IMG/VR virus record: IMGVR_UViG_2576861478_000002
From: a virus
Lineage: Duplodnaviria; Heunggongvirae; Uroviricota; Caudoviricetes
Reading direction: 5' to 3' (one strand)
DNA: 64,000 bases
Both the position numbers and the translations under genes were made by a program. The notes under the pieces were generated by a model. It did not search any database and was not told the origin of the DNA. It saw only the letters and a program-made list of their open reading frames with translations. Of this stretch, positions 8,752 through 63,641 are shown piece by piece (within the stretch, counting starts at the first letter, position 1; every line of letters begins with the position of its first letter).

Positions 8752-9099
8752 ATGAGGACTTCTAAGAAAGTTACAGCGATTTCTAGTGATATGAAAAAAC
8801 TTAAAACGATATTAAGGCAGATTCCTAAAGAGCGTTTACCGATAGCGCAGAGTTTATATAACGAGCTTGTATTTATGCAAACTACTTTAGAGGCTTTAAA
8901 AACTCAAGTAAATGAAGAAGGACCGACAGCAATGTTTAAACAAGGTAGGCAAGAATTTTTAAGGGAACATCCAGCGTTAAAAGCCTATAACACAACTGTA
9001 CAGCGTTACAGTCTTTTGTATAAGCAATTAGTTGATTTATTACCGCCAACAGATTTAAAACCAAAAGAAGATGAACTAATTGACTTTATTAAGAGGTGA
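8752..9099 (+). CDS. terminase small subunit (P27 family)
   Basis: Resembles 27349..27711 and 61651..61986. Size and position immediately upstream of terL. Confidence 0.75.
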   Translation: MRTSKKVTAISSDMKKLKTILRQIPKERLPIAQSLYNELVFMQTTLEALKTQVNEEGPTAMFKQGRQEFLREHPALKAYNTTVQRYSLLYKQLVDLLPPTDLKPKEDELIDFIKR

Positions 9100-9103
9100 T
9101 AAC

Positions 9104-27348: not shown

Positions 27349-27711
27349 ATGAGCGATAATTTAGATATAGAAAAAGAAAAAAGAATTAAGCGAGAGATGA
27401 CACGATTAAACAGTTTATTAAAGAATTTAGAGCCTAAGAAAAAGAGAGCAGTTTCTTCACTCATAAAAAACGCTGCTTTTATGGCTGTCACTTTAGAAGA
27501 TCTGCAAGAAGATATTAATCAGAATGGTGTTACTGAACAATACCAAAACGGAGCAAATCAATTTGGAGTTAAAAAATCTTCAGCTGTTGAAGTATACAAC
27601 ACAATGATAAAAAATCATGTACAGGTAATGAAACAACTAACTGACTTGCTCCCGAAAGAACAGCCTAAAGAAGAGGATGATGGGTTTGAAGACTTCGTGA
27701 ATAGAAAATGA
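27349..27711 (+). CDS. terminase small subunit (P27 family)
   Basis: Family pattern; position before terL. Confidence 0.75.
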   Translation: MSDNLDIEKEKRIKREMTRLNSLLKNLEPKKKRAVSSLIKNAAFMAVTLEDLQEDINQNGVTEQYQNGANQFGVKKSSAVEVYNTMIKNHVQVMKQLTDLLPKEQPKEEDDGFEDFVNRK

Positions 27712-29408
27712 GTAAGCAAGTAAAAAAACAGTATCCGTTAACTTATAATCCAATCATTGAGTATTACAATCAAATCGAATCTGGACAAGTAATTGTATCC
27801 AGTAAAGTTAGGCGGATATATAAAAAGCTTGTAGATGATGTGCATGATACTTCCTCTGTATTTGAGTACGATGCAAATAAAGCGAATCACGTAATAGAAT
27901 TTATTGAGAATTTTTGCAAACACTCAAAAGGAAAATGGGGAGGTAAATCGATTGAATTAGAGCTTTGGCAAAAAGCATTTTTAGCAGCTTCTTTTGGATT
28001 TGTTCATAAAATTGATGGAACGAGAAAGTATAGAGAAGTACTCTTAATTGTGGCTCGTAAAAACGGAAAGTCAACAATCGCTTCTGGAATTGGTTTGTAT
28101 TTACAAGTTGCCGATGGTGAACCAGGTGCAGAAATATATGCAGTTGCTACTAAATTAGACCAAGCAAAATTAGTTTGGTTAGATGCCAAAAGGATGGTTA
28201 AGAAATCCCCCGTATTATTAAAACGAATTAAACCGCTTGTTCGTGAATTAAATGCAGATTTTAATGATAGTACGTTTAAACCTTTGGGAAGTGATTCAGA
28301 AACACTTGATGGTCTTAATGTTCATGGAGCGATGATGGATGAAATACATGCTTGGAAAGATAAGAATCTATATGACGTTATAGTGGATGGTACTTCTTCA
28401 AGGGAACAACCAATGATATTTATGATTACAACAGCTGGAACCATTCGTGAATCAGTTTATGATATGAAATATGAAGAAGCCGAAATGCTTTTAAATGGTT
28501 TGGACGATCCAGACGGCTATAAAGACGATCGCTTTTTACCAATCATATATGAGTTGGATAAAAGAGAGGAATGGACTGATAATACTAAATGGACAAAAGC
28601 TAATCCTGGTTTAGGTACGATAAAAAAGATAGACCAACTTGAAACAAAGGTAAACAAAGCGAAAGCAAATTCTTTGCTAGTTAAGAACTTACTAACAAAA
28701 GATTTTAATATCCGCGAAACAAGTACAGAAGCCTGGTTAACATTTGAACAATTAAATAACAAGGCTACCTTTGATGTAGCAAAATTAAAGCCTTCTTATG
28801 GGATTGGCGGTTGTGATTTATCTTCAACAACTGATTTAACCGCAGCGAAGGTTATTTTTATGCTTCCAAACGATCCGCATGTCTATGTATTACAAATGTA
28901 TTGGCTTCCTGAAGATTTGCTTGAACAAAGAAGTAAAGAAGATAAGATTCCATATAATTTATGGGCAGAACAAGGAATATTGAGAACAACACCAGGTAAT
29001 TCAGTTCATTATAAATTTGTAACACAATGGTTCTTAGAAGTCAGGGATGAACTCGGTATTTATATTCCGTGGATCGGTTATGATAGATGGTCCGCAAAAT
29101 ATTGGGTGGAGGAAATGGAAGGCTACTTTGGTAAAGAAGCAATGATTCCAGTTGCCCAAGGGAAACAAACTCTTTCTAGCCCTATGAAATTATTAGGAGC
29201 AGATTTAGAGTCTAATTTAGTAAATTACAACAATAATAGCATTGATAAATGGTGCTTATCGAATACAGCCATTGATGTGGATAAAAACCTGAATATACAG
29301 CCGAACAAAACAAATAATCAACGTAGAAGGATTGACGGAACCGCAGCGCTTTTAAATGCATATGTTGTGCTTCAAGAAAAACGTAATGATTACTTAAATA
29401 TGATTTGA
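27708..29408 (+). CDS. terminase large subunit
   Basis: Paralog of 9104..10744. Confidence 0.9.
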   Translation: MSKQVKKQYPLTYNPIIEYYNQIESGQVIVSSKVRRIYKKLVDDVHDTSSVFEYDANKANHVIEFIENFCKHSKGKWGGKSIELELWQKAFLAASFGFVHKIDGTRKYREVLLIVARKNGKSTIASGIGLYLQVADGEPGAEIYAVATKLDQAKLVWLDAKRMVKKSPVLLKRIKPLVRELNADFNDSTFKPLGSDSETLDGLNVHGAMMDEIHAWKDKNLYDVIVDGTSSREQPMIFMITTAGTIRESVYDMKYEEAEMLLNGLDDPDGYKDDRFLPIIYELDKREEWTDNTKWTKANPGLGTIKKIDQLETKVNKAKANSLLVKNLLTKDFNIRETSTEAWLTFEQLNNKATFDVAKLKPSYGIGGCDLSSTTDLTAAKVIFMLPNDPHVYVLQMYWLPEDLLEQRSKEDKIPYNLWAEQGILRTTPGNSVHYKFVTQWFLEVRDELGIYIPWIGYDRWSAKYWVEEMEGYFGKEAMIPVAQGKQTLSSPMKLLGADLESNLVNYNNNSIDKWCLSNTAIDVDKNLNIQPNKTNNQRRRIDGTAALLNAYVVLQEKRNDYLNMI

Positions 29409-40249: not shown

Positions 40250-43200
40250 GGACACCAAGTGGGATACTTCATGTTGTTGATTTTCAAACAGAACAAATTG
40301 TTTCTACTATCCAATCTAAAGATTATTGGGATGATAAACGGCATTGGGAAATCAAGAACAATATTGATAAGTTTGATTTTACAACGGCTGATGGTACAGA
40401 ACAAGCAGCTACACTCTTGCAACAAAACTTAGTGTTAAAAGAAGTGCGTAGCGGTGTTATTGTACCGTATGTAATTACGGAAGCTGAAAAAGTTTCTAAT
40501 GATAGATCCGTAATTACTTATGCATCTGGTGAGTGGATTTTATTAGCAAAAGCAGGTGTTATCAATCCTCAACGAATTGAAGGGAAAACGGTCAATGAGT
40601 TTATTGACATAGCTTTAACAGGGACAAAGTGGAAACGAGGTCGTACAGAATACTCTGGTTTTCATACAATGACTATCAATGAACCTATAGATCCGCTTAA
40701 ATTATTAAAGGATATCGCTTCTCTTTTTGATTTGGAAATTGTGTATCGTGCTGAAGTTGTTGGTAATCAATTCGTTGGTCGTTATGTGGATATGATTAAG
40801 AAGCGTGGTCGAGAAATAGGTAAAGAAGTAACTCTTGGTAAAGATTTAATGGGAATCAAACGTATTGAAAACTCTCAAAATGTCTGTACAGCGCTTATAG
40901 GGTTCGTTAAAGGTGAAGGAGATAAGATAGTTACAGTTGAGAGTATTAATAATGGTCTGCCGTACATCGTAGATAATGATGCGTTCCAGCGCTGGAATGA
41001 AAAAGGAAAGCATAAATTCGGATTCTATACTCCAGAGACAGAACAAGATATCACTCCAGGCCGTTTAATGACTCTTATGAAAACGGAGATGAAAAAACGT
41101 GTAAACACATCTGTTTCTTATGAAGTTGAAGCACAATCAATCGGTCGTGTGTTTGGATTGGCACATGAGTTAATTAATGAAGGTGATACAATCCGAATCA
41201 AAGATACTGGATTTACACCCAAGTTATACCTTGAAGCACGAGCAATCGCTGGAGATGAGTCATTTAAAGATCCGATGCAAGATAAATATGTATTTGGTGA
41301 TTACCGTGAAATTGTTGATCCAAACGAGGAATTACGCAAGCTCTATAATAAAGTCCTGGCTTCATTAGGTAGTAAACAAGAAATTTTAGATCAGCTAGAT
41401 AAGTTGGTTAAAGAGACTGCTGAAAAAGCAAATGATGCTCAAAAAGAATCTGAATCCGCTAAGAAAATTGCTGAAAAGGTTCAGGAAAACCTGAAAAATA
41501 ATACGGTAAATATTGTTGAAGCTAAAAACCCACCAATTGATAATCTTATAGTAGGTAAAACATTATGGCGAGATATTAGTAACGGTAAACCTGGTATTTT
41601 AAAAGTGTGGAATGGTAAAGGGTGGGAGCTTCTTATTCCTGATGTGGAATCTATTAAAAAAGATACACTGGAGCAGGTTAATAAGGATATTAAACTTACA
41701 AAAGAAGAATTAAATAAGAAAGTGGAAGAAGCGCAAGAAGAAGCAACTGGGCAATTTAATACAGTAACAGAGGGTCTTTCAAAAGTTACAAGAACTATTT
41801 CTGATGTACAAAGAGATCAAGGTGAAATTGATAAAAAAGTAACTCAGGTTGAACAGGATTCTGAGAAATTTAAATTGTCTATTGAAACATTAACGAAAAA
41901 TAGTACTGATACTACAAGTAAAATCAATACATTAGAAAGTGATGTGGACGGAAATAAGAAAGTTATTTCAGCAGTTAAAGAAAGTGTAGCGAACATTAAT
42001 GACGATGTAAGAAACTTGTTAATCGGTTCTAAATCTTTTGATGGCGCTTTGACCTTTGCGCAAGCAGACAATCGTTGGTGGCTTAAATCAGCAGATAAAG
42101 TTAAAATTTCGAAGGATGTTTTTCAAGGTAATGCAGTCGTAGAAACTCAAACATCATGGACTGCTTTAGCTTATAACTTCAAGGATTTAGTAGATCGAAA
42201 AGTTGTAAAAGTAGGAGATAAAGTAACCTATTCAATTTTTACTCGTGTAAAAGGTTTGCCGAATGGCCAAGATCTACAACACACTTTCTATTTTGCTGCA
42301 GGTGCTACTGGCATCCGTCCAAATAAATCTACTAATCAATGGCAGCGTGTAATTGTTTCATTCGTAGTGACAGTGGGTATGATGGCATCAACGGGAACGG
42401 ATAACGAGAGTCATTTTCGTATAGAACCTGACGTAAATCCTCCTGCTGGTTGTTGGTATCAGCAGAGTTCACCACAATTGACTATAGGCAGTAAAGATTA
42501 TTCGTGGAGACCTGCTCCTGAAGATATTGCAGATGGTAATGTTTTCACCAAGATAACAACCGAAATCAAAGAAGAGGCTGGGAGAATCTCTAAAAAATTG
42601 GAGCAGGTTGAATCTCGTACAGTGGGCGTTGAAAACTGGCTAATCAATACTGGGCGAAATCAAAAGCCACAAACAATTGGAATGTCTGGAGGCGCACTAG
42701 TCAACAAAGCTACTCAATCATTCACTGAGGATTACATGATTGTAGAATGTACAGATCATACCGACTCTTTCTACCAATTCCATCTAGATAATACTAAGAT
42801 GGGTGACTACGAAAAAGAGAAAGATATGACATTTAGTATCGATATGCAAAACGATGTTCCTATTGATTTACTTGTATTCCAATTTATTAATGGAGTTTGG
42901 GCAGAAAACTTGTACAATAGATTCTCTGTCGCTAATTGGTCTAGAAGATCATTTACATTTAAAATTGATGCGCGGGCAACTGGATGGGGATTACGATTAA
43001 GATTTGAAAGAAACGAAAATTCAAAGGGTAAGAAATTTCGTTTCAAGAAACCTAAACTAGAAAAAGGTTCTGTTCCTACGGGTTTTACAAAATCGACTTA
43101 TGAGTTGGAACAAAGTTTCGAGGGTGTAAAAGAGCGTATTGAAAAAACGGAATCTATCATTAATGATGCTGGTGATCGTAACTATGTACGGAACGGAGAT

Positions 43201-44745
43201 TTCACACACTATTGGGCCGATAACGACCTGCAATGGGATAAGAACCTAAACGGTAATTTGCGCGCTGGTAATTGGGCAACAGGTTATAACGCTGGAACAA
43301 CAGATCCTACAAAGGGTTATCATATGCACGTTAATGACAAAAAGTTTGGGTATCCTGTAGTTGCTGTTATTAACAAAAATGGTCAATTCGGTCAAGGTAA
43401 AAGGTGGCTTGGAATGCCTCAAGAAATGCCAGCTAGTTTCCGAAATGATTTCCAGCCAGGTGATACGTACACGATCGCTTTAGATGTATGGACGGAAACA
43501 GTAAATAACAAAATAGCGGTAGGATTACACCACTTTATTGAGGGTAACACTTCAATGGGCTTTCATAGTGGGGGTACGCCAGAATTAAAGATTGAACCTG
43601 TTAAAAAGTGGGTTCGCCTGTATACAACAATGAAATTACATGATAAATCAGATATGAAAAAAGGTTTTAGCTTGTATATTTATGGCGATCGTTCTGCCGA
43701 TGGTAGTGAGTGCTACTTCAAAAATGTATCTGTGTTAAAAGGATCTATGCCGAAAGCATTCGCTCCGTCTCCGGAAGATGGGGTAAAAGAAAATGTATTC
43801 AGCCAGAAAGTAACGGAGATTACGAAGAACGCCGAAGGGATAACAAGTGATGTAAAAAAAATACAGGAAATACAAACTCAGCAAGGGCAAACACTGACTG
43901 AAGCTACTACAACGATCCTGCAACAATCTGAAGAATTGAAGCTAGCAATGAAAAAGAAAGATGTTGAAGCTTATGTAGGTGGTTTAGGTACTGTCAACGA
44001 GTTGCGTGATGCTAATTTTACGTTAGGACAGAAATATTGGTTTTGGAATAGCGGTAATGGGGCTACTGGTGCTGTTGATACGAGTTTAAAATACAAAGGG
44101 ATTAATACATTTGTAATTACTGTTGCTGGCCAGACGCAAGATCGTTGGTGGGGACTTACAAGTCAATTCATTGAGTGTCAGGTTAACGAAGAGTTTGTTG
44201 CATCAGGTTATTTCAATACTGATGGGAAAACACCTATTGATAGTGGCGGTGCATTTATTGAAATGGAATGGTGGACTGCTGACAAAAAAACTCGTATTAA
44301 GACAGCTAGAACGAATATCACTGTTGTAAATCATACATGGGTTCGTGCTGTATGCACAGATAAAGCACCAGCTAATGCATCGTTTGTGAGATGGCGTTAT
44401 TACGTGACAAGAAATGGGCGTTTATGGTGTGCTGCACCTATGTTACAACGTGGCACTATAGCTACAGAATTTTGGTTACATCCGAAAGATCAAACGGATG
44501 CTGACAAAATGATAGAGGATATTGCTAATAGAGTAGCAACTAAAGATTACGATAAAAAAGTAACCGAATTGGAAAGAAGTATCGCTACTAATGAAGAAGG
44601 CGTTACTATCATTTCAAAAAAACAGGAAAGTTTTATTAATGAGACCTATAATGCCTATGTAAAGAAAACAGAATCGAAGTTACAGGTATTAGATGAAGGG
44701 ATGCTTAGCACAAATTTTAAAAGACGGTATCATTACTTCTATTAA
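40246..44745 (+). CDS. tail-associated lysin/tip protein (Tal; prophage-tail endopeptidase N-domain + long coiled-coil + C-terminal binding region)
   Basis: 1499 aa; N-terminal Prophage_tail-like region; position after Dit. Confidence 0.75.
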   Translation: MRTPSGILHVVDFQTEQIVSTIQSKDYWDDKRHWEIKNNIDKFDFTTADGTEQAATLLQQNLVLKEVRSGVIVPYVITEAEKVSNDRSVITYASGEWILLAKAGVINPQRIEGKTVNEFIDIALTGTKWKRGRTEYSGFHTMTINEPIDPLKLLKDIASLFDLEIVYRAEVVGNQFVGRYVDMIKKRGREIGKEVTLGKDLMGIKRIENSQNVCTALIGFVKGEGDKIVTVESINNGLPYIVDNDAFQRWNEKGKHKFGFYTPETEQDITPGRLMTLMKTEMKKRVNTSVSYEVEAQSIGRVFGLAHELINEGDTIRIKDTGFTPKLYLEARAIAGDESFKDPMQDKYVFGDYREIVDPNEELRKLYNKVLASLGSKQEILDQLDKLVKETAEKANDAQKESESAKKIAEKVQENLKNNTVNIVEAKNPPIDNLIVGKTLWRDISNGKPGILKVWNGKGWELLIPDVESIKKDTLEQVNKDIKLTKEELNKKVEEAQEEATGQFNTVTEGLSKVTRTISDVQRDQGEIDKKVTQVEQDSEKFKLSIETLTKNSTDTTSKINTLESDVDGNKKVISAVKESVANINDDVRNLLIGSKSFDGALTFAQADNRWWLKSADKVKISKDVFQGNAVVETQTSWTALAYNFKDLVDRKVVKVGDKVTYSIFTRVKGLPNGQDLQHTFYFAAGATGIRPNKSTNQWQRVIVSFVVTVGMMASTGTDNESHFRIEPDVNPPAGCWYQQSSPQLTIGSKDYSWRPAPEDIADGNVFTKITTEIKEEAGRISKKLEQVESRTVGVENWLINTGRNQKPQTIGMSGGALVNKATQSFTEDYMIVECTDHTDSFYQFHLDNTKMGDYEKEKDMTFSIDMQNDVPIDLLVFQFINGVWAENLYNRFSVANWSRRSFTFKIDARATGWGLRLRFERNENSKGKKFRFKKPKLEKGSVPTGFTKSTYELEQSFEGVKERIEKTESIINDAGDRNYVRNGDFTHYWADNDLQWDKNLNGNLRAGNWATGYNAGTTDPTKGYHMHVNDKKFGYPVVAVINKNGQFGQGKRWLGMPQEMPASFRNDFQPGDTYTIALDVWTETVNNKIAVGLHHFIEGNTSMGFHSGGTPELKIEPVKKWVRLYTTMKLHDKSDMKKGFSLYIYGDRSADGSECYFKNVSVLKGSMPKAFAPSPEDGVKENVFSQKVTEITKNAEGITSDVKKIQEIQTQQGQTLTEATTTILQQSEELKLAMKKKDVEAYVGGLGTVNELRDANFTLGQKYWFWNSGNGATGAVDTSLKYKGINTFVITVAGQTQDRWWGLTSQFIECQVNEEFVASGYFNTDGKTPIDSGGAFIEMEWWTADKKTRIKTARTNITVVNHTWVRAVCTDKAPANASFVRWRYYVTRNGRLWCAAPMLQRGTIATEFWLHPKDQTDADKMIEDIANRVATKDYDKKVTELERSIATNEEGVTIISKKQESFINETYNAYVKKTESKLQVLDEGMLSTNFKRRYHYFY

Positions 44746-44746
44746 T

Positions 44747-45805
44747 ATGTCACCTGGTAAGATTATAATCGATGCTGAGAAACTGAATATTAATGCCGAT
44801 ACAATGGTGAAATGGTTAACTGCAAAAGGCATTGATACGAATCTTATTAGAATTGATGGTGATAAGATAACCATTGATAAAGATGGTGTAACTGTTAAAA
44901 TGCTAGACTTCCTATTCCAAGACGAATGGGGCACAAAAACAACTGCGGTATCAAGACGAAACCTAATAGCAGATCCAGACTTTTCTAGTGTTACAAAGAA
45001 AAACATTGGCCATAACGATTATTATGGATTTGAAGGTGGATATGGCCTTACTTGGAAGTCCTGGGGAAATGTCGTAATAGAAAAGAATACACATATATTC
45101 GATTACGAGCAGATGGTGAATGCTGCAAGGGTAGATATGTATAACTATCCAGAAGCAATCGTGAATAATGGGATACATCCTGGTAACGAATATACAGTTT
45201 CTGCTCACTTTAGAACGTCTATGATAAATGGTGTACGTAAAACAGGAAAACCACGTTTACAAGTATGCTGCGTTAAATTCCGAGACAATGTAAGTTACGA
45301 TATATGGAATGAACAAAAAATGGACTTTCCTGAACCGTCGACATTTTATGGAGAAATCAGAAGATACTCTTTCACTTTCAAAGTGCCGACAAACTATATT
45401 CCACAACAACACGCATTGATTATTAAAGTTTGTTCTGGAAATGCTGACATGAGACAAGGGACAGCGATTTGTGTAAGTGGTGTAACGCTATACAGTGGCA
45501 AATATGCATCTATGTATAATTGGGATCGTGCCGCAGCAGAAAGAGCAGATGGTATTCAGCCGTTTAACGCAATCGCTATAGGTGGTGTGAATAACAATAT
45601 AGCTCCAGCACCAGACGGACAAACGTTTGATATAAGTACTGAAAAAGAAGTGAAAATCTTTAGGAATATACGAGCAATGCAGGGAATTAACTTAGGTGGC
45701 GGTGGATTCCAACAATGGGGTCATATTCGCTTTACAGACGGTAATATGGGATCGGGTTTTTATGCGAGTACTCCAAGTGGTTGGAAATTTAACGCACTTG
45801 GATAG
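44747..45805 (+). CDS. putative receptor-binding/tail fiber protein
   Basis: Position after Tal; start uncertain (44693 in the ORF track). Confidence 0.4.
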   Translation: MSPGKIIIDAEKLNINADTMVKWLTAKGIDTNLIRIDGDKITIDKDGVTVKMLDFLFQDEWGTKTTAVSRRNLIADPDFSSVTKKNIGHNDYYGFEGGYGLTWKSWGNVVIEKNTHIFDYEQMVNAARVDMYNYPEAIVNNGIHPGNEYTVSAHFRTSMINGVRKTGKPRLQVCCVKFRDNVSYDIWNEQKMDFPEPSTFYGEIRRYSFTFKVPTNYIPQQHALIIKVCSGNADMRQGTAICVSGVTLYSGKYASMYNWDRAAAERADGIQPFNAIAIGGVNNNIAPAPDGQTFDISTEKEVKIFRNIRAMQGINLGGGGFQQWGHIRFTDGNMGSGFYASTPSGWKFNALG

Positions 45806-45821
45806 AAAGGAAGGATTAAAC

Positions 45822-46199
45822 ATGGATATTAACTACATGATGCCTTTTCAAGAAGGTGAAATGCTTCCTTATATGGGAAGAATAGTAGATGTAAAGCGAA
45901 CGGAAACAGGAGTCTTTATACAAGTACCTGCTGACATGTTAGATAATGCAGGGGTTTCCAATGATACGAGTAAAGTTGAGGTGTGGAGGGACATGTCTGA
46001 CGGAACTATTGGTTTTAGGGTTTTAACGAAATGTGAGTTATGTGGTTGTGGAGCCAAATTATATGAATTGAACTTAGGAGTTGCTAAAAGGAACATTTGT
46101 GCAAATGATTATTTTAAACTTACAGGGAATTACCCATCTCAAGAACCGCCAGCATCAACTAATGAAAATAACACACAAACAGAGCAGGAGCAGCCATAA
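45822..46199 (+). CDS. hypothetical protein (pre-lysis cassette)
   Basis: ATG after AAGGAAGGA. Confidence 0.45.
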   Translation: MDINYMMPFQEGEMLPYMGRIVDVKRTETGVFIQVPADMLDNAGVSNDTSKVEVWRDMSDGTIGFRVLTKCELCGCGAKLYELNLGVAKRNICANDYFKLTGNYPSQEPPASTNENNTQTEQEQP

Positions 46200-46211
46200 G
46201 CTGGTCTTTTT

Positions 46212-46481
46212 TTGTTGCCTAAAAAGGAGATGAGAAGATTGCCCGAACATGAAAACCATGACGATTTCACAAAAGTAATTATTGGATTAACAAGGGTGGA
46301 AACAAAAATTGATGGTCTCGGTAATGTTAGAGAACTCGCAATCGAAGCGCAACAGTCGGCAAAAAGCGCTCATTTACGTGTAGATCGATTGGATAAACTT
46401 GTGTTTTGGATGGGAACAACAGTTGTCGGTTCTCTTATAGCTGGAGGAATAGCACTACTTTTTAAATTCGTAGGGAAGTGA
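46212..46481 (+). CDS. xhlA: XhlA-family protein (coiled-coil + C-terminal TM)
   Basis: C-terminal TM VFWMGTTVVGSLIAGGIALLF. Start uncertain (TTG at 46212/46239 or ATG at 46230). Confidence 0.55.
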   Translation: MLPKKEMRRLPEHENHDDFTKVIIGLTRVETKIDGLGNVRELAIEAQQSAKSAHLRVDRLDKLVFWMGTTVVGSLIAGGIALLFKFVGK

Positions 46482-46506
46482 TCGTATATACGGTCACTTT
46501 TTTTAT
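46479..46506 (+). terminator. rho-independent terminator (intron target stem)
   Basis: GTGATCGTATATACGGTCAC then T7; the intron 5' GTGTG begins 9 nt later. Confidence 0.6.
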
Positions 46507-48362
46507 GTGTGCCAGGCATGGCAACTATCTAGGTGGTGGAAGTCCACTGTGGGGGTACACATCGACCAACCACTAAGGAAGCGCAAGGTACTTACCGTGA
46601 GGTTAGGGCTGGAGGAAGCGTGGAATAAAATCTTGGCTCGACGAACAGAAACCTGATATGAAGGCTTTATAAAGGGATGAGGCTCCATAACAAGTTAAAG
46701 TCCAAAAGATGTGCGTAACTTTGTAGAGTAAATCAGGCGAGTAAAAGAGGAAAGATAGTTGCCTTACCCTGGGAGATCTTGCGGATGTACTAACAGTACA
46801 GTCGAAAATGGTTAACCGCAAGAAGTCAGCCGAAGCCATAGTAGTGGAACAAATTCATGAAGGGCCGAACAGTTTATAGTGTTTCAACGCCATGAATGCG
46901 TAAGTGACATACTCCGAATATGTTAATGATGAAAGTATGAGCGTATCTCAAAGGATAATCAAAATGGAGTTGTCACTTACTACGTGAAGGGAAAGGAGAA
47001 ACGAGTGTGGAACTCTTAGAAGCAATTTTAAGCAACAAAAATATGAATGAAGCCTACTTACGCGTTTATAAAAACAAAGGTGTTAGTGGAGTTGATGGTG
47101 TAACAGTCGAAGAACTAAAGCAATATCTGAAAGAGCACAAGGACGAGCTACGTCAGCGCATTAGAACAAGGAAATACCAACCACAAGCTGCCTTAAGAGT
47201 GGAAATCCCAAAAGAGAATGGCAAGATGCGCAAGCTGGGAATACCAACAGTAGTGGATAGAGTCGTTCAACAAGCCATTCATCAAATACTCAGCCCGATA
47301 TTTGAGAAGCAGTTCAGTGAATTCAGTTATGGTTTTAGACCAAAAAGAAGTTGTGAGATGGCAATTGTTAAAAGCTTGGAATTTCTAAACAACGGATATG
47401 ATTGGATAGTAGATATTGATTTGGAGAGATTCTTTGACACAGTTCATCACGATAAATTGATGCGAATTATATCTAACTCAATACATGACGGAGACGTCAT
47501 CTCTCTCATAAGAAAGTATCTAGTCAGTGGAGTTATGGTGAATGGGAAATATGAAGAAACACCAGTCGGAACTCCGCAAGGAGGCAATCTCAGCCCTTTA
47601 CTGAGTAACATTATGTTGAACGAACTGGATAAGGAACTCGAGGGTAGAGGACTTCAATTTGTGAGATACGCTGATGACGCTCTTATCTTTGTGAGGAGTG
47701 AGAAGGCAGCGGGCAGAGTGATGAAATCAATCGTGAGATTCATAGAAAAGAAACTAGGCTTGATAGTCAATACAGAAAAGAGTAAAATCTCTCGGCCAAA
47801 AGATTTAAAATTTTTAGGGTTTGGATATTATTACACCCTCAAGGATAAGAGATATCAAACGAAACCACATCCAATCTCGGTACAAAAATTTCAAAGAAAA
47901 TTGCACCAACTGACAAAACGAAGCTGGAGTGTACCGTTAGACTATCGAATATTGAAACTTAAACAAGTGATATTTGGATGGGTCAATTACTTCAGGAGTA
48001 CAAATATGAAAGGTGTTCTGGAGCGAGTAGACCAGAAGCTCCGCTCCAGAATTAGGGTGATTATCTGGAAGCAATGGAAAGTACCGAAGAAACAAATCAA
48101 ATCGCTTGTTCAACTAGGGATTCCGGAGGAAGAAGCGAAGGGATTAACCTACTGTCGAAAGGGCTTCCGATATATAGGGTTATCGAAAGTTGTTCAAAGA
48201 GCCATCTCAAATCAAAGACTAAAGAAGAGGGGAGTCCCTTCTTCTTTAGAACGCTATCTAAAAGTTCACACTGTAATATAAACTGAACCGCCGTATACGG
48301 AACCGTATGTACGGTGGTGTGAGAGGGGCGAGAATAATTACTTTATTTTCCCTCTACTCGAT
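46507..48362 (+). mobile_element. group II intron, bacterial class C (IIC) type
   Basis: 5' GUGUG directly after a terminator. ~500 nt GC-rich domain I-III region. RT/maturase ORF in domain IV. Domain V-like ACCGCCGUAUACGGAACCGUAUGUACGGUGGU at 48286..48317. Domain VI with a bulged A ~48356. 3' end is +/-5 nt. Confidence 0.8.
47007..48281 (+). CDS. group II intron reverse transcriptase/maturase (no En domain)
   Basis: RT blocks 0-7 incl. YADD (FVRYADDALIF). X/maturase region present. Ends at domain V. Confidence 0.9.
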   Translation: MELLEAILSNKNMNEAYLRVYKNKGVSGVDGVTVEELKQYLKEHKDELRQRIRTRKYQPQAALRVEIPKENGKMRKLGIPTVVDRVVQQAIHQILSPIFEKQFSEFSYGFRPKRSCEMAIVKSLEFLNNGYDWIVDIDLERFFDTVHHDKLMRIISNSIHDGDVISLIRKYLVSGVMVNGKYEETPVGTPQGGNLSPLLSNIMLNELDKELEGRGLQFVRYADDALIFVRSEKAAGRVMKSIVRFIEKKLGLIVNTEKSKISRPKDLKFLGFGYYYTLKDKRYQTKPHPISVQKFQRKLHQLTKRSWSVPLDYRILKLKQVIFGWVNYFRSTNMKGVLERVDQKLRSRIRVIIWKQWKVPKKQIKSLVQLGIPEEEAKGLTYCRKGFRYIGLSKVVQRAISNQRLKKRGVPSSLERYLKVHTVI

Positions 48363-48379
48363 TGAGAGGAGGTGAGAGT

Positions 48380-48610
48380 ATGAGAAACTTTGATGCAGCT
48401 TCAATTAGTCGCTATGTCGTATTGGTGATTGCTGTGATTAATAGTGTCTTAAATCTTGTGGGATACCAAGCGATTGATGACAAAATTACAAACGATTTAG
48501 TAGCTGTGATTACAGGAGCATTCACTTTGTATATGGCTTGGAAGAACAACTATTTGAGCAACAAAGGATTACAACAAAAAGATGTATTAGAAAAAAATGA
48601 CTTACACTAA
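48380..48610 (+). CDS. phage holin
   Basis: Two TM segments; directly upstream of the endolysin. ATG after GAGAGGAGGTGAG. Confidence 0.7.
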   Translation: MRNFDAASISRYVVLVIAVINSVLNLVGYQAIDDKITNDLVAVITGAFTLYMAWKNNYLSNKGLQQKDVLEKNDLH

Positions 48611-48627
48611 AAGGGAGATGTTCAATA

Positions 48628-49560
48628 ATGGAAATCAGAAAAAAATTAGTTGATTCAAGTAAATATGGTACAAAGTGTCCTTATACAATGAATCCGGAAT
48701 TTATTACAGTCCACAATACTTACAACGATGCTACAGCAGAAAACGAAGTAGCTTATATGATTCGTAATGATAACCAAGTTTCATTTCATGTTGCGGTAGA
48801 TGATAAAGAAGCTGTACAAGGTCTGCCTTTAGAGCGTAATGCATGGGCTTGTGGTGATGGAAACGGTTCAGGTAATCGAGAGTCTATTAGTGTAGAAATC
48901 TGTTATTCTTTAAGTGGTGGAGAGAGATATTATAAAGCGGAAGACAATGCAACTATCGTTGTAGCTCAACTAATGAAACAGTACAATATTCCAATTCATA
49001 AAGTCCGTACACATCAATCATGGAGTGGGAAGTACTGTCCTCACCGTATGTTGGCAGAAGGACGTTGGACTAACTTTATTGAAAGAGTCCAAAATGCATG
49101 CAATGGAGATGGTAAAGTAACTCCTACGCTTATTCCACCGTCAAATAATGGGACAGGTATTGCGTATATTGAGGGGAATGGCATTAACCTTCGTAAAGGT
49201 CCAGGTACTGGATATGGCGTTATTCGTCAATTAGGTAAAGGTGAGGCCTACGAAGTATGGGGCCAATCAAATGGATGGTTAAACCTTGGTGGCGATCAGT
49301 GGATTTATAATGATTCATCATACATTCGTTATACAGGAGGAAAAGTACCAGCATCTTCTAAACCTTTAAATGATGGCGTTGGTGTAGTGACTATTACAAC
49401 TGATGTATTACGTGTTCGTAAAGGTCCAGGAACTAACTATGGCATCGTGAAAAAAGTGTATCAAGGTGAAAAATATCAAACGTGGGGATATAGAGACGGT
49501 TGGTATAATGTTGGAGGCGACCAATGGGTTTCTGGTGAATATGTGAAGTTTGAAAAATAA
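48628..49560 (+). CDS. endolysin: N-acetylmuramoyl-L-alanine amidase (PGRP/amidase_2) + two SH3b-like wall-binding repeats
   Basis: Amidase_2 motifs in the N-terminal ~160 aa. Duplicated GNGINLRKGPGTGYGV..WxxxNGWxNxGGDQW modules. Confidence 0.9.
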   Translation: MEIRKKLVDSSKYGTKCPYTMNPEFITVHNTYNDATAENEVAYMIRNDNQVSFHVAVDDKEAVQGLPLERNAWACGDGNGSGNRESISVEICYSLSGGERYYKAEDNATIVVAQLMKQYNIPIHKVRTHQSWSGKYCPHRMLAEGRWTNFIERVQNACNGDGKVTPTLIPPSNNGTGIAYIEGNGINLRKGPGTGYGVIRQLGKGEAYEVWGQSNGWLNLGGDQWIYNDSSYIRYTGGKVPASSKPLNDGVGVVTITTDVLRVRKGPGTNYGIVKKVYQGEKYQTWGYRDGWYNVGGDQWVSGEYVKFEK

Positions 49561-49720
49561 AACATATTACTGTATAAAAGAATAGTTTTATAAAAAATAT
49601 TATCTGATTCTATAGGTAGGTACGTATATCTTGACTATTATATTTGCAAATGTTACCATAAATGTACACCGTTTCTTATTTTTATATTTATGGTAAGTAT
49701 CCGTAAAATTAACCTAAAAA

Positions 49721-49765
49721 ATCCCCTCTTGCACTCATATGCAGAAGGGGATTTTTATTTTAATT
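49721..49765. terminator. bidirectional terminator
   Basis: AAAAATCCCCTCTTGCACTCATATGCAGAAGGGGATTTTTATTTT. Confidence 0.55.
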
Positions 49766-49835
49766 TGCTTTTAATATAGGGTTTATGATTGGAGCCTATG
49801 TGTATGTGAAATAGGGAATAGAAAAAAAGCATTCG

Positions 49836-49868
49836 TCCCCAAGAATGCTTTTTTTCAATAGATTTATC
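49836..49868 (+). terminator. terminator
   Basis: AAGCATTC..GAATGCTT followed by TTTTTT. Confidence 0.45.
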
Positions 49869-50172
49869 ATAAAAGGAGAAAAAATCACTGTCCATTTTAT
49901 TATATGTAGGTACACCGTGTAATATGCGAAAAAGACACCTTCCCCAGTTGAAGCTGTCTTTTTCGTGTTGAAAGTTCTTTAGATGTCAATTATAGAGTAT
50001 GCAGTTTACATACACTATATTCCACAATACCCCATGCGCTCCCCTGATAAACACAGTTATGTCATAAAAGTTGTTGGCAATCGCCCGATCTTTCACAAGT
50101 TGTGGGATGTGTAAACCAAGTTTTGCGCGTGGGTGATTATTTTATATCTTCCTGTGTATCTCGTCAAGTTGT

Positions 50173-50373
50173 TTAGAATAACGAGAGTTGTTCACCTTCT
50201 ATTTGTTGAACGTCTATTTGCCATTGGTATAGGTTACCCATTCTTCTTTTTAATTCAGTTTCTATTCCGTGTTTTGCATGCTCAACTGTTGGTGCGTAAA
50301 TTTCAATAAACTTTTCTTTGTATTGTTGCCCACTGGGAGAGAAAACACTATAAACGATTTGATATTTTTTCAT
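50173..50373 (-). CDS. hypothetical protein
   Basis: Isolated minus-strand ORF with an AGGTGATACAGC-like RBS. Confidence 0.3.
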   Translation of the reverse strand: MKKYQIVYSVFSPSGQQYKEKFIEIYAPTVEHAKHGIETELKRRMGNLYQWQIDVQQIEGEQLSLF

Positions 50374-50743
50374 GCTGTATCACCTCGAAAGTTGTATAGA
50401 TAGCAGTATAGCAACTGTATTGTTAGTATGGTAAAGAGATGTGGTTTTTAACAACCTATTGGAAAAAGAAAAAACACCTCATTATGAAGTGTCTTTTCCT
50501 GTGTTTCAATCCAAAAGAAAGATGACAGAACTACAATTCTTGTAAGACACCAAAAGGGAACTACAGAGATGTATTCTCAATAAGGGTATATAACAGCACA
50601 TAGAGTAGGGCAAGTATTACTAAGATATTCCCGGGCAACAAATTGGAGAAGTAAATCGTCGTATTAATGATAACCGAAATCGTTTTAAAGATACTGTAGA
50701 TATTATTGATATTAGGGCTAATGGGTTTGAGCCATTAGGTCGA

Positions 50744-51310
50744 TTGGCTGGATATACAAAACAATCATTTAATCAATCGAAGAACATCTACCTCCTCTCC
50801 GAACGAGGATACGCAAAGCTTTTAAAAATCCTTGAAGATGATACAGCATGGGAATTATACGATCAGTTTGTAGATGGATATTTCAATATGAGAGAACAGA
50901 AACAAATCCCTACAGACCCAATGAGTATTTTAAAACTAACATTTGATGCGTTAGAAGGACAAAAGCAAGAACTCCAGCACATCAAATCAGATGTCAAAGA
51001 CTTACGAGAAAACGCACCATTATTCGCAGTAGAGTGCGATGAAATATCCAATGCAGTAAAACGTTATGGTGTTGTATTACTTGGTGGTAAGAATTCTAAT
51101 GCTTATCAAGACCGTGGTTTGAGATCAAAAGTTTATAAAGACATCTATAGACAGTTGTATAGAGAGTTTGGAGTAACAAGTCATAAAGCGATTAAACGTG
51201 GTCATTTGGAGTTAGCATCAAAAATCGTTGAAGAATACACATTACCAATTGTATTAAGTGAAGAAATTACTTTTGTAAATTCACAAATAAATATGGCGGT
51301 AGTTCAGTAG
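50744..51310 (+). pseudogene. N-terminally truncated antirepressor (KilA-C/ORF6C domain only); duplicate of the ant 3' part
   Basis: ~520 bp ~90% identical to 16830..17348. Homology continues upstream in frame, without a start and with a stop at 50621. No RBS. Confidence 0.5.
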
Positions 51311-61650: not shown

Positions 61651-61986
61651 GTGGCTAGAGGGAAGCGTGAAACAATGAGAAAAAGGATTGAAAAGGATCT
61701 AACAAATCAATTAAAAGAAAAAAAGATTGTAGGTAATCATTATACTGACTTAATTCAAGACTATTTATCGTTGTGGGATTTAAAGTGTGTTCTTGTTGAT
61801 GATATTGAAGAAACAGGAATAAAAGTATCTGGCATGCATGGTCCGAAATCCAATCCTTCTATTAATGATTTACATAAAACAAATGATCGAATGATAAAGA
61901 TTTTAGATGCACTTGGATTAGAAGCATCGGCAGAAGAAAAGAAAGTTCCTTCAAAACCTGTGCGCTCAGTTAAAGATTTAACATGA
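61651..61986 (+). CDS. terminase small subunit (P27 family)
   Basis: Family pattern. Confidence 0.75.
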   Translation: MARGKRETMRKRIEKDLTNQLKEKKIVGNHYTDLIQDYLSLWDLKCVLVDDIEETGIKVSGMHGPKSNPSINDLHKTNDRMIKILDALGLEASAEEKKVPSKPVRSVKDLT

Positions 61987-63641
61987 TTCAAAATAATTAT
62001 GTCACTGAATATATTGAGATGTATCGCGCAGGGAAAATTAAGCTGAATAAAGAGCGCATAATGCTAATTGAGTACCTGGAGAAATACATTTTAATACGCG
62101 ATGATTTGTATTTCGATAATGAAATGCATGAGGACTATATAAAATTCACTGAGAAATGGTACTTTGAATTGCAAGCATTTCAAAAGTTCCTAACAGCATT
62201 CGTTTTTCTTTTCTATAAAGAAGATGATTCTGTTTTTTACGAGCAATTTTTAATTATGATGGCTCGTGGTGGTGGTAAAAACGGTTTAATTTCATCATTA
62301 TGCCATTTCTTTATTAGTCCGCTGCACGGAATAGATCGATACAATGTTTCAATTGTGGCGAACAACGAGAAACAGGCCAAAGTTTCTTTTCGTGAAGTCT
62401 ATGATGCTATTAAAGGAAAAGAAATACTAGAAGATATGTTTTATCGAACCAAGGTAGAGATACTGAGTAACGATACGCAAAGCATTATTCAATATCATAC
62501 ATCTAATGCTGGTTCTAAGGATGGACTTCGTGACGGTTGTGTTATTTACGATGAAATACATCGATATGAAAACTTTGATGTAGTAAATGTATTCTCTAGT
62601 GGACTTGGAAAAGTGCCAAATGCTAGAGAATTTTTTATTGGTACAGATGGCTTTGTCCGCGATGGATTCCTGGACAAAACAAAAGAGCGGGCGATGAATA
62701 TTCTAAAGGGGAAAGATTTAGAAGATCCATTATTCCCTTTCATTTGCAAGATAGATAATCCAGAAGAAATTGATAATCCTGATGTATGGGAAAAAGCGAA
62801 TCCGATGTTTAGCGAGCCGAGAAGTTCTTATGCTAAACAATTATTTAAAAAGGTATTAACTCAATATAAACAATTAGAAAATAATCCTTCAAACCGTGAA
62901 GAATTCATAACAAAACGTATGAATTATCCTGAAACAGATTTAACAAAGTCTGTAGCTTCATGGGAAGAAATCATGCGTACTGGTTTTGAAGAAGATGGGG
63001 AAACGCTCAGAGAGGTTCCAGATTTAAAACATAAAGTAGCTGTAGGCGGACTCGACTTCGCCAGCATTAAAGACTTTGCTGCGGTTGGTCTACTCTTTAA
63101 ACATGGTGAAGATTATATATGGAAAGGTCATTCATTTGTACGTAAAGGATTTTTGGACAAGGTGAAATTAAAAGCACCTATATATGAATGGGCTGAAAAT
63201 GGCTTACTAACTATTGTGGATGAACCAGTTATTAATATCTCTCACATTGTAGATTGGTTTGTAAAAATGCGTGAGTTATACGGTGTTAATACGATTGTAG
63301 CCGATACATTCCGCCTTGATCTTGTCAAAACGGCACTTGAAGCTGAAGGATTTATATTGTTGTATATCCGTAATCCAAAGGCAATACATTCTCTTTTAGC
63401 ACCAAGAGTTGAAACGTTGTTTGCAAACAATCGCATTATTTTTGGAGATAATCCATTGATGCGTTGGTACACTAACAACGTCTACGTCCACATCAAAAAA
63501 GACGGCAACAAAGAGTATCTGAAAAAAGATGAATTTAAGCGTAAAACAGATGGATTTCAAGCTTTTATTCATGCGCTATGGCAAGCGGATAACATTCTTG
63601 TGGATGAATTCGACTTTATGCTAGATGGTATTAAATTCTAA
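61983..63641 (+). CDS. terminase large subunit
   Basis: Paralog of the other two terL genes. Confidence 0.9.
   Translation: MIQNNYVTEYIEMYRAGKIKLNKERIMLIEYLEKYILIRDDLYFDNEMHEDYIKFTEKWYFELQAFQKFLTAFVFLFYKEDDSVFYEQFLIMMARGGGKNGLISSLCHFFISPLHGIDRYNVSIVANNEKQAKVSFREVYDAIKGKEILEDMFYRTKVEILSNDTQSIIQYHTSNAGSKDGLRDGCVIYDEIHRYENFDVVNVFSSGLGKVPNAREFFIGTDGFVRDGFLDKTKERAMNILKGKDLEDPLFPFICKIDNPEEIDNPDVWEKANPMFSEPRSSYAKQLFKKVLTQYKQLENNPSNREEFITKRMNYPETDLTKSVASWEEIMRTGFEEDGETLREVPDLKHKVAVGGLDFASIKDFAAVGLLFKHGEDYIWKGHSFVRKGFLDKVKLKAPIYEWAENGLLTIVDEPVINISHIVDWFVKMRELYGVNTIVADTFRLDLVKTALEAEGFILLYIRNPKAIHSLLAPRVETLFANNRIIFGDNPLMRWYTNNVYVHIKKDGNKEYLKKDEFKRKTDGFQAFIHALWQADNILVDEFDFMLDGIKF

What the first reader, a model, noticed from the sequence alone, without database searches (positions are those of the whole stretch)
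46479..48362. Class IIC group II intron inserted directly behind the xhlA terminator within the phage lysis cassette
The intron 5' GUGUG starts 9 nt after a terminator hairpin plus T7 (46479..46506). That is the signature target of IIC introns. The 1.86 kb intron carries an En-minus RT/maturase and plausible domains V/VI. Its 3' end abuts the holin RBS. Because it is not inside a coding sequence, splicing is not needed for gene integrity, but it separates xhlA from the holin and endolysin by 1.9 kb and could alter lysis-gene coupling.
Basis: partly seen in the sequence, partly recalled or inferred. Interest (0 to 1): 0.6.

Follow-up and report, generated by a model that had tools for sequence, protein, structure and literature searches.

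The report
Group IIC intron in prophage lysis cassette
A complete, apparently active class C group II intron (a self-splicing mobile RNA element) sits exactly behind a terminator-like hairpin between the xhlA and holin genes of a Bacillus thuringiensis prophage; this is textbook behaviour for the intron class, in a slightly unusual place.

Summary
Window 46507-48362 (1856 nt) is a full group IIC (bacterial class C) intron. Three Rfam group II models pass their gathering scores. The ORF is an intact RT/maturase (RVT_1 + GIIM, YADD, no endonuclease domain), and its best solved relatives are IIC maturases.

- **Class hallmarks:** domain V has the IIC-specific CGC triad and a short distal stem. 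Domain VI has a bulged A 7 nt from the 3' end.
- **Insertion site:** the intron starts 9 nt after hairpin 46478-46497 (T7 + AT) and ends 1 nt before the holin Shine-Dalgarno stretch.
- **Empty sites:** 31 of 31 IMG/VR prophage contigs and phages phiS58 and Waukesha92 carry the same hairpin joined directly to the holin RBS. This fixes both boundaries to the nucleotide.
- **Family-wide target:** across 67 distinct sites of this intron lineage, 95.5% lie behind a hairpin plus T-run, against 3.5% of controls. The 4-nt EBS1 loop (46687-46690, AUAA) covaries with the 4 nt before the intron (UUAU here).

The window comes from B. thuringiensis kurstaki YBT-1520. Any effect on lysis timing is untested. 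This is a new member of a well-known kind, of low to moderate interest.

The parts
46239..46481 (+). xhlA (XhlA-family lysis protein). The longest ORF starts at TTG 46212 and the gene caller used ATG 46230. TTG 46239 fits the AAGGAG spacing and the phiS58 homologue's start.
   Evidence: PF10779 E 4.6e-09. It is 71% identical to the phiS58 protein that precedes that phage's holin. Start-codon choice is my inference.
46478..46497 (+). Terminator-like hairpin (8-bp stem with one G-U pair, ATAT loop) containing the xhlA stop codon. It is the structural part of the intron's target.
   Evidence: Fold z = -4.57. The same hairpin occurs in 31 empty-site prophage contigs and in phiS58/Waukesha92.
46498..46506 (+). 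T7 run plus AT. The last four bases, TTAT (46503-46506), are IBS1.
   Evidence: Sequence. IBS1 is assigned from covariation with EBS1.
46507..48362 (+). Complete group IIC intron, 1856 nt (5' GUGUG ... 3' GAU).
   Evidence: Rfam hits. Empty sites fix both ends. Full-length matches occur at other sites.
46591..46865 (+). Core of ribozyme domain I, covered by the Rfam D1D4-3 and D1D4-1 matches. It includes the AGGAA bulge at 46613-46617.
   Evidence: alignments. AGGAA is named as an IIC hallmark in PMC1702495.
46687..46690 (+). EBS1 (AUAA) in the hairpin loop CUCC-AUAA-CAAG. It pairs with IBS1 UUAU.
   Evidence: 16 EBS1 variants match their 5' flanks. 47 of 60 sites form all four pairs, mean 3.75 against 2.23 +/- 0.12 for shuffled partners.
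47007..48281 (+). Intron-encoded RT/maturase in domain IV, 424 aa, En-minus. YADD is at aa 221-224 (47667-47678).
48288..48317 (+). Domain V, 30 nt, with the CGC catalytic triad at 48289-48291.
   Evidence: The alignment to RF00029 shows a 4-nt deletion in the distal stem and CGC aligned to the consensus AGC. Fold.
48320..48360 (+). Domain VI, with the bulged branch-point A at 48356 (7 nt from the 3' end).
   Evidence: alignment and the MFE fold.
48363..48363 (+). IBS3, the first base of the 3' exon (T).
   Evidence: T occupies this position in 37 of 40 full-length copies of the lineage. The EBS3 partner was not mapped.
48364..48610 (+). Holin Shine-Dalgarno stretch (GAGAGGAGGTGA 48364-48375) and the SPP1-type holin gene (ATG 48380).
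   Evidence: PF04688 and TIGR01592. Sequence.
48628..49560 (+). Endolysin (N-acetylmuramoyl-L-alanine amidase with SH3 domains).
   Evidence: PF01510 and PF08239.

Best explanation
A mobile bacterial class C (group IIC) intron, consisting of a ribozyme and an endonuclease-less RT/maturase, has inserted into the sense strand of a B. thuringiensis prophage. It sits exactly 9 nt after the terminator-like hairpin at the end of xhlA.

**Target recognition.** The intron reads its target as IIC introns do: a DNA stem-loop, a 4-nt IBS1 (UUAU) paired to EBS1 (AUAA), and a T at +1.

**Inferred mechanism (not shown here).**
- The RNP reverse-spliced into transiently single-stranded DNA and was copied from a nascent strand at a replication fork, because the protein has no endonuclease domain.
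- The intron has no obvious promoter of its own. It is transcribed only when late-operon transcription reads through the hairpin, that is, during lytic growth.
- Maturase-assisted splicing then restores the ancestral xhlA-hairpin-RBS-holin mRNA.
- The insertion is therefore near-neutral, and the intron travels with the lysis cassette.
For: **Shown here**
- Ribozyme domains pass three Rfam gathering scores.
- IIC hallmarks are present: CGC triad, a 30-nt domain V, the AGGAA bulge and a bulged A at -7 (criteria from PMC1702495).
- The RT/maturase is intact, has YADD and lacks En. Its nearest solved relatives are IIC maturases.
- The insertion is precise against empty sites in phiS58/Waukesha92 and in 31 of 31 IMG/VR contigs. 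Three of those contigs have the identical 3' flank.
- 95.5% of 67 sites lie behind a hairpin plus T-run, against 3.5% of controls, and EBS1-IBS1 covary.
- Mobility or transfer looks recent. The intron is 100% identical in two prophage backgrounds. A copy with 8 differences in 1856 nt (2 amino-acid changes) sits at an unrelated hairpin on 10.6-kb B. thuringiensis plasmids.

**Bearing on the read-through inference**
- In empty sites only about 20 nt separate the T-run from the holin ATG. Holin and endolysin transcripts must therefore cross the hairpin.
- No plus-strand promoter-like site was found between 45500 and 47759.
Against: - Nothing here shows transcription, splicing or mobility. IIC introns mostly splice by hydrolysis in vitro (PMC4748821 abstract).
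- Whether the hairpin terminates transcription at all is unknown, and the simple terminator scan did not list it.
- No virion-derived phage genome in INPHARED carries this intron, and 0 of 31 IMG/VR contigs with this hairpin are occupied. The intron-bearing prophage may therefore be impaired, or the insertion may be confined to one clone.
- Promoter-like hexamers inside the RT ORF (47760, 47804) could drive the holin independently, although their number does not exceed that in shuffled sequence.
Confidence: 0.9

Rival explanations
1. The intron is authentic but has a polar effect. A 1.86-kb structured insert behind a terminator lowers or delays holin and endolysin expression, so the prophage lyses late or is lysis-defective (cryptic).
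For: The lysis genes have no room for a promoter of their own in empty sites. The intron adds 1856 nt to transcribe and fold before the holin RBS. No isolated phage in INPHARED carries the intron, and 0 of 31 IMG/VR contigs with this hairpin are occupied.
Against: The holin and endolysin ORFs are intact. The 5.9-kb cassette including the intron is kept 100% identical in two different prophages. A related copy sits just upstream of another prophage's holin and amidase. Splicing would regenerate the ancestral mRNA.
Confidence: 0.15
2. The intron is a dead relic: a passenger that no longer splices or moves.
For: No expression data exist. IIC introns behind terminators are thought to be transcribed rarely (PMC7306698).
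Against: The 424-aa ORF is uninterrupted and has YADD. All ribozyme motifs are intact. Only 8 differences in 1856 nt separate it from a copy at a different site, with a matching EBS1-IBS1 pair.
Confidence: 0.07
3. The RT ORF belongs to another retroelement (retron, DGR or an Abi/DRT defence RT), and the flanking RNA similarity is coincidental.
For: Weak sub-threshold NCBIfam hits to retron and Drt models. Some PDB and GenBank depositors label such proteins 'retron-type'.
Against: TIGR04416 scores 421 bits (cut-off 300), while every retron or Drt hit is far below its own cut-off. A GIIM maturase domain is present. Ribozyme domains I-III lie upstream and V-VI downstream of the ORF. The whole 1856-nt unit moves as one piece.
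Confidence: 0.01

Closest known systems
B.h.I1 (Bacillus halodurans) and O.i.I1 (Oceanobacillus iheyensis), the model group IIC introns
   Same: Same 5' end: GTGTGCCAGGCATG matches the B.h.I1 primer sequences quoted in PMC1702495. Also shared are the CGC triad, the short domain V, the AGGAA bulge, a 3-4 bp EBS1-IBS1 pairing, the absence of EBS2, and insertion after an intrinsic-terminator stem-loop. From my own memory, O.i.I1 also has the AUAA loop and UUAU exon.
   Different: This is a different lineage member with a different host, the B. cereus group. In 2008 class C introns were known there only from strain NVH391-98 (PMC2504315). It also sits inside a prophage operon rather than at the end of a host operon.
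Eubacterium rectale IIC intron/maturase (PDB 7uim, 7uin, 8t2r-t) and GsI-IIC RT (6ar1)
   Same: The IEP aligns end to end (residues 3-419, E 1.7e-154, and 1-420, E 7.3e-105). It has the same RT-plus-thumb/maturase architecture without D/En domains.
   Different: It is an orthologue-level relative only. No structure or biochemistry exists for this protein.
[quoted passage not shown]
   Same: A group II intron carried on a (pro)phage genome. [quoted passage not shown] Nanz197 is also a tblastn hit of this RT at 38% identity.
   Different: Most of the 20 phage introns in that survey interrupt coding genes. This one is intergenic, between xhlA and the holin RBS inside a lysis cassette, and is absent from the isolated-phage collection.
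Near-identical copies annotated as ltrA on B. thuringiensis plasmids (e.g. NZ_CP083153, NC_022877/NC_022882)
   Same: 99.6% and about 92% identical over the full 1856 nt, each behind its own hairpin plus T-run.
   Different: They occupy other insertion sites, for example beside a toxin-antitoxin pair. The YBT-1518 subfamily has EBS1 AAUU and targets xAUU instead of UUAU.

Membership tests
Group II intron (ribozyme) | Conserved domain I-IV core and domain V/VI structure, 5' GUGYG and 3' AY ends | tested here: met
   RF02001 128.5 bits, RF01998 45.5 bits and RF00029 44.6 bits, all above gathering score. GUGUG at 46507 and ...GAU at 48362.
Group II intron (ribozyme) | Self-splicing or maturase-assisted splicing that yields ligated exons | not testable with these tools
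   Needs RT-PCR or RNA-seq across 46506|48363.
Group IIC / bacterial class C intron | Domain V with CGC in place of the AGC triad and a distal stem 2 bp shorter (PMC1702495) | tested here: met
   CGC at 48289-48291 aligns to the consensus AGC. There is a 4-nt gap in the distal stem, giving a 30-nt domain V.
Group IIC / bacterial class C intron | Bulge with a conserved AGGAA in the epsilon-prime region (PMC1702495) | tested here: met
   CUGGAGGAAG aligns to the consensus CUGAAGGAAG. AGGAA is at 46613-46617.
Group IIC / bacterial class C intron | Short (3-4 bp) EBS1-IBS1 pairing | tested here: met
   EBS1 AUAA (46687-46690) pairs with UUAU (46503-46506). Family-wide covariation: 47 of 60 sites form four pairs, mean 3.75 against 2.23 +/- 0.12 for shuffled partners, maximum 2.65 in 2000 shuffles.
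Group IIC / bacterial class C intron | No EBS2-IBS2 pairing; a stem-loop occupies the IBS2 position (PMC1702495) | tested here: inconclusive
   The hairpin occupies the place where IBS2 would lie. I did not search the intron for an EBS2 motif, so its absence is inferred, not shown.
Group IIC / bacterial class C intron | Insertion just downstream of an intrinsic-terminator-like stem-loop plus T-run | tested here: met
   Here the order is hairpin, T7, AT, then the intron. 95.5% of 67 distinct sites of the lineage fit, against 3.5% of random controls.
Group IIC / bacterial class C intron | Compact ribozyme and an IEP of class C without a D/En (HNH) domain | tested here: met
   581 nt of non-ORF RNA. 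The 424-aa IEP has RVT_1 and GIIM only. Its top solved relatives are all IIC maturases.
Group IIC / bacterial class C intron | EBS3-IBS3 pairing with the first 3'-exon base | tested here: inconclusive
   The +1 base is T in 37 of 40 copies, which fits a fixed EBS3 A. EBS3 itself was not located.
XhlA-holin-endolysin lysis cassette of Bacillus (pro)phages | Adjacent co-oriented genes for XhlA, a holin and a cell-wall hydrolase at the end of the late operon | tested here: met
   PF10779, then PF04688/TIGR01592, then PF01510 + PF08239. The same order without the intron occurs in phiS58 and Waukesha92.
Rho-independent terminator | The hairpin plus U-run actually terminates transcription | not testable with these tools
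   The motif folds well, but essential lysis genes lie directly downstream. It must therefore be leaky or antiterminated, which is my inference.
Retron / DGR / defence RT (considered) | RT scoring above the family cut-off, with msr-msd, TR/VR or effector partners and no ribozyme | tested here: not met
   All retron and Drt NCBIfam hits fall far below their cut-offs, and the ORF is embedded in group II domains.

The most novel reading that the evidence does not exclude
The conserved hairpin in front of the holin RBS may be a safety terminator for the lysis genes, overridden only during late lytic transcription. By sitting behind it, the IIC intron would be silent in the lysogen and expressed exactly when replicating, single-strand-rich phage DNA is abundant. 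Holin and endolysin synthesis would then depend on transcribing, and perhaps splicing out, a 1.86-kb ribozyme. That would make the intron a lysis-timing element and the phage a dispersal vehicle for it. A second, independent insertion of a related copy directly upstream of another prophage's holin and amidase hints that this position recurs.
Probability: 0.15. Interest if true: 0.55.

Novelty: new member of a known kind. Interest (0 to 1): 0.27.

Why it matters
Group II introns were long thought absent from phages and are found in only about 0.07% of isolated phage genomes (PMC12350094). This one adds a clean, boundary-resolved case of a class C intron inside a temperate-phage late operon of an industrial B. 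thuringiensis strain.

- **A tractable splicing test.** Essential lysis genes lie directly downstream, so the locus offers a natural test of whether terminator-hiding IIC introns are transcribed and spliced in vivo, and whether they cost the phage anything.
- **Annotation.** The RT gene between xhlA and the holin should not be read as a phage gene or as a defence RT.
- **Mapped recognition loop.** The EBS1 loop with its 16 natural variants shows how this Bacillaceae-wide lineage retargets itself.

Tried and rejected
- **Terminator and promoter scan.** It did not list the 46478-46504 hairpin. I set this aside in favour of direct folding, and the scan gave no promoter signal above shuffles.
- **Isolated phage genomes.** Megablast and blastn of the intron against 50,697 phage records found no phage with this intron, only short unrelated matches. 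tblastn of the RT gave at best 51% identity, in unannotated gut 'Bacteriophage sp.' fragments.
- **Phages B13, phi4J1 and B83.** They share the upstream 125-aa gene but have a different holin and no xhlA, so they could not serve as empty sites.
- **Exact-hairpin scan of species-representative genomes.** No hits, so the empty sites came from IMG/VR instead.
- **First guess for EBS1.** I first considered the conserved CAUAGUA internal loop and the Id3 loop UAACA. Both were rejected because they do not change when the 5' flank changes. The CUCC-NNNN-CAAG loop does.
- **RBS sequestration.** The MFE fold of 48283-48400 keeps domains V and VI intact and leaves the Shine-Dalgarno largely unpaired. 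The spliced-form fold is ambiguous. No conclusion was drawn.
- **Literature searches.** None of the held papers describes this intron or a group II intron in a Bacillus lysis cassette. Robart et al. 2007 (PMC1871835) is not held.
- **EBS3.** Not mapped.

Full report
**1. Observation**

The sequence at 46478-48382 reads as follows:
- hairpin GTGATCGT/ATAT/ACGGTCAC at 46478-46497, with the xhlA stop TGA (46479-46481) inside it
- T7 at 46498-46504
- AT at 46505-46506
- the intron, GTGTGCCAGGCATGG ... CCCTCTACTCGAT, at 46507-48362
- TGAGAGGAGGTGAGAGT, then the holin ATG at 48380

As RNA, the hairpin region folds at -16.4 kcal/mol, with z = -4.57 against dinucleotide shuffles. The simple terminator scan did not list it. 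I attribute that to G-T-tolerant stem extension into the T-run, which is an inference.

Rfam gives three matches above gathering score on the plus strand:
- D1D4-3 at 46591-46762, 128.5 bits
- D1D4-1 at 46800-46865, 45.5 bits
- domains V/VI at 48286-48362, 44.6 bits

The 424-aa ORF at 47007-48281 has RVT_1 and GIIM and no endonuclease domain. It scores 421 bits on TIGR04416, whose cut-off is 300. It also keeps YADD at residues 221-224.

**2. Exact boundaries from empty sites**

Phages phiS58 and Waukesha92 have an XhlA homologue (71% identical) followed by the same hairpin. In phiS58 the sequence runs ...CGGTCACTTTTTTTAT directly into TTGGAGGAGGTGAGAGTATG, the holin start.

A scan of IMG/VR for the exact 27-nt hairpin/T-run found 31 prophage contigs. 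All 31 are empty sites, and three of them (L024, L026, L048) have exactly the window's 3' flank, TGAGAGGAGGTGAGAGTATGAG. Removing 46507-48362 from the window therefore regenerates a natural allele nucleotide for nucleotide.

The same 1856-nt unit also matches end to end at unrelated sites:
- 99.6% identity on 10.6-kb B. thuringiensis plasmids
- about 92% in several copies on YBT-1518 plasmids
- 85% in Peribacillus
- 82% in Lysinibacillus

**3. Class assignment**

The criteria come from Toor, Robart & Zimmerly 2006 (PMC1702495).
- **Domain V:** it is 30 nt long. The Rfam alignment shows a 4-nt deletion in the distal stem, and CGC (48289-48291) aligns to the usual AGC.
- **AGGAA bulge:** present at 46613-46617.
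- **Domain VI:** it has a bulged A at 48356, 7 nt from the 3' end.
- **Ribozyme size:** the non-ORF RNA is only 581 nt.
- **IEP relatives:** the best solved relatives are all IIC maturases. These are 7uim/7uin/8t2r (E 1.7e-154 over residues 3-419), 5hhj/5hhl, and GsI-IIC RT 6ar1.

**4. Target rule tested across the lineage**

The intron's first 20 nt occur in at least 120 loci of Bacillaceae and Planococcaceae genomes and in 9 IMG/VR contigs.

Among 67 distinct 5' flanks, 95.5% have a stable hairpin (MFE at or below -8 kcal/mol in 45 nt) plus at least 6 T in the last 12 nt. Only 3.5% of random positions from the same loci do.

The alignment of seven copies showed a 4-nt loop, CUCC-NNNN-CAAG, that changes together with the last 4 nt of the 5' exon:
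- AUAA with UUAU (this window)
- AAUU with xAUU
- AAGA with UCUU

Over 60 sites carrying 16 different loop sequences, 47 form all four pairs. The mean is 3.75 pairs, against 2.23 +/- 0.12 when partners are shuffled (maximum 2.65 in 2000 shuffles). EBS1 is therefore 46687-46690 and IBS1 is 46503-46506.

The first 3'-exon base is T in 37 of 40 full-length copies. A second hairpin+T7 at about 46186-46213 is unoccupied. It is followed by GTTG rather than TTAT, which fits this specificity (inference).

**5. Context**

Window positions 41007 onward are identical to CP004858.1:295129-308403. That record is the chromosome of B. thuringiensis kurstaki YBT-1520 (PMC4585936).

The prophage runs from an integrase (13636-14733, minus strand, next to guaA) through terminase, portal and tail genes to the lysis genes. 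All late genes are on the plus strand.

The 5.9-kb block containing xhlA, the intron, the holin and the amidase is 100% identical in a second prophage with unrelated flanks. A related copy sits between a tail-fibre gene's hairpin and a BhlA-like holin plus amidase in a YBT-1518 prophage.

**6. Mechanism**

- **Shown:** element identity, intactness, precise insertion, target rule, and near-identical copies elsewhere.
- **Inferred from established knowledge of class C introns** (Robart et al. 2007, as cited in PMC7306698 and PMC12350094; the IIC RNP structures behind PDB 7uin): the RNP recognises the stem-loop in single-stranded DNA together with IBS1 and IBS3. It reverse-splices into that strand and, lacking En, is primed from a nascent strand at a replication fork.
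- **Weakly consistent:** plus-strand GC skew is +0.21, and the intron lies on the strand co-oriented with replication.
- **Read-through:** empty sites leave only about 20 nt between the T-run and the holin ATG. Holin and endolysin transcription must therefore cross the hairpin, so the intron is co-transcribed with the late operon, and splicing would restore the ancestral mRNA.
- **Untested:** whether the extra 1.86 kb delays or lowers lysis-gene expression.

**7. Comparison and novelty**

Class C introns behind terminators are the commonest bacterial group II introns (PMC7306698). This one is already auto-annotated as ltrA in public records.

Group II introns in phages are rare. A survey found 20 in 29,015 isolated genomes, including one IIC intron behind a terminator in Mycobacterium phage Nanz197 (PMC12350094). 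In 2008 class C introns were known in only one B. cereus-group strain (PMC2504315). No held paper describes this insertion.

**Verdict:** the finding is real and correctly interpreted. It is a new member of a known kind, of low to moderate interest.

Noticed in passing
window 9080-10744, 27708-29408, 61983-63641: Three large-terminase genes lie in one 64-kb window. The intron-bearing prophage (integrase 13636-14733 on the minus strand, through to the amidase at 49560) has phage-like DNA on both sides, which suggests tandem prophages or remnants. The right neighbour starts with ORF6C antirepressor-like and DnaB_2 genes at 50744 and 51934.
   Followed up: partly
window 11766-11867 and 12023-13570: A purine riboswitch (RF00167, 84 bits) lies upstream of guaA (GMP synthase). 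The prophage integrase gene begins 66 nt after guaA, so the attachment site is probably at the guaA 3' end.
   Followed up: no
window ~44700-50600; L012 vs L013 3700-9600: A 5.9-kb block holding the tail-gene 3' end, a 125-aa gene, xhlA, the intron, the holin and the amidase is 100% identical between two prophages whose flanks are unrelated. The lysis module, with its intron, has been exchanged as a cassette.
   Followed up: partly
L010 1501-3400 (Peribacillus frigoritolerans plasmid NZ_CP085396): Two copies of the intron lie in direct tandem. The second GTGTGCCAGG starts at the base right after the first copy's ...CTCGAT, so the site behind one hairpin was hit twice.
   Followed up: no
L021 (IMGVR_UViG_2561511152_000013), reverse strand 9059-10918: A roughly 92%-related copy with EBS1 AAUU sits behind the hairpin of a tail-fibre-like gene and immediately before a BhlA-like small membrane protein and an amidase. 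This is a second, independent insertion just upstream of a prophage lysis cassette.
   Followed up: partly
window 46186-46213: Another hairpin (GAGCAGC-CATAA-GCTGGTC, with the stop codon of the 125-aa gene in the loop) plus T7 lies just upstream of xhlA. It is unoccupied and is followed by GTTG rather than the TTAT this intron needs. The late operon therefore carries at least two internal terminator-like motifs within 300 nt.
   Followed up: partly
window 45822-46199: A conserved 125-aa protein with a CxxC-containing C-terminus lies between the tail-fibre genes and xhlA. It has no Pfam or NCBIfam match, and its homologue in phage B13 is annotated 'transcriptional regulator'.
   Followed up: no
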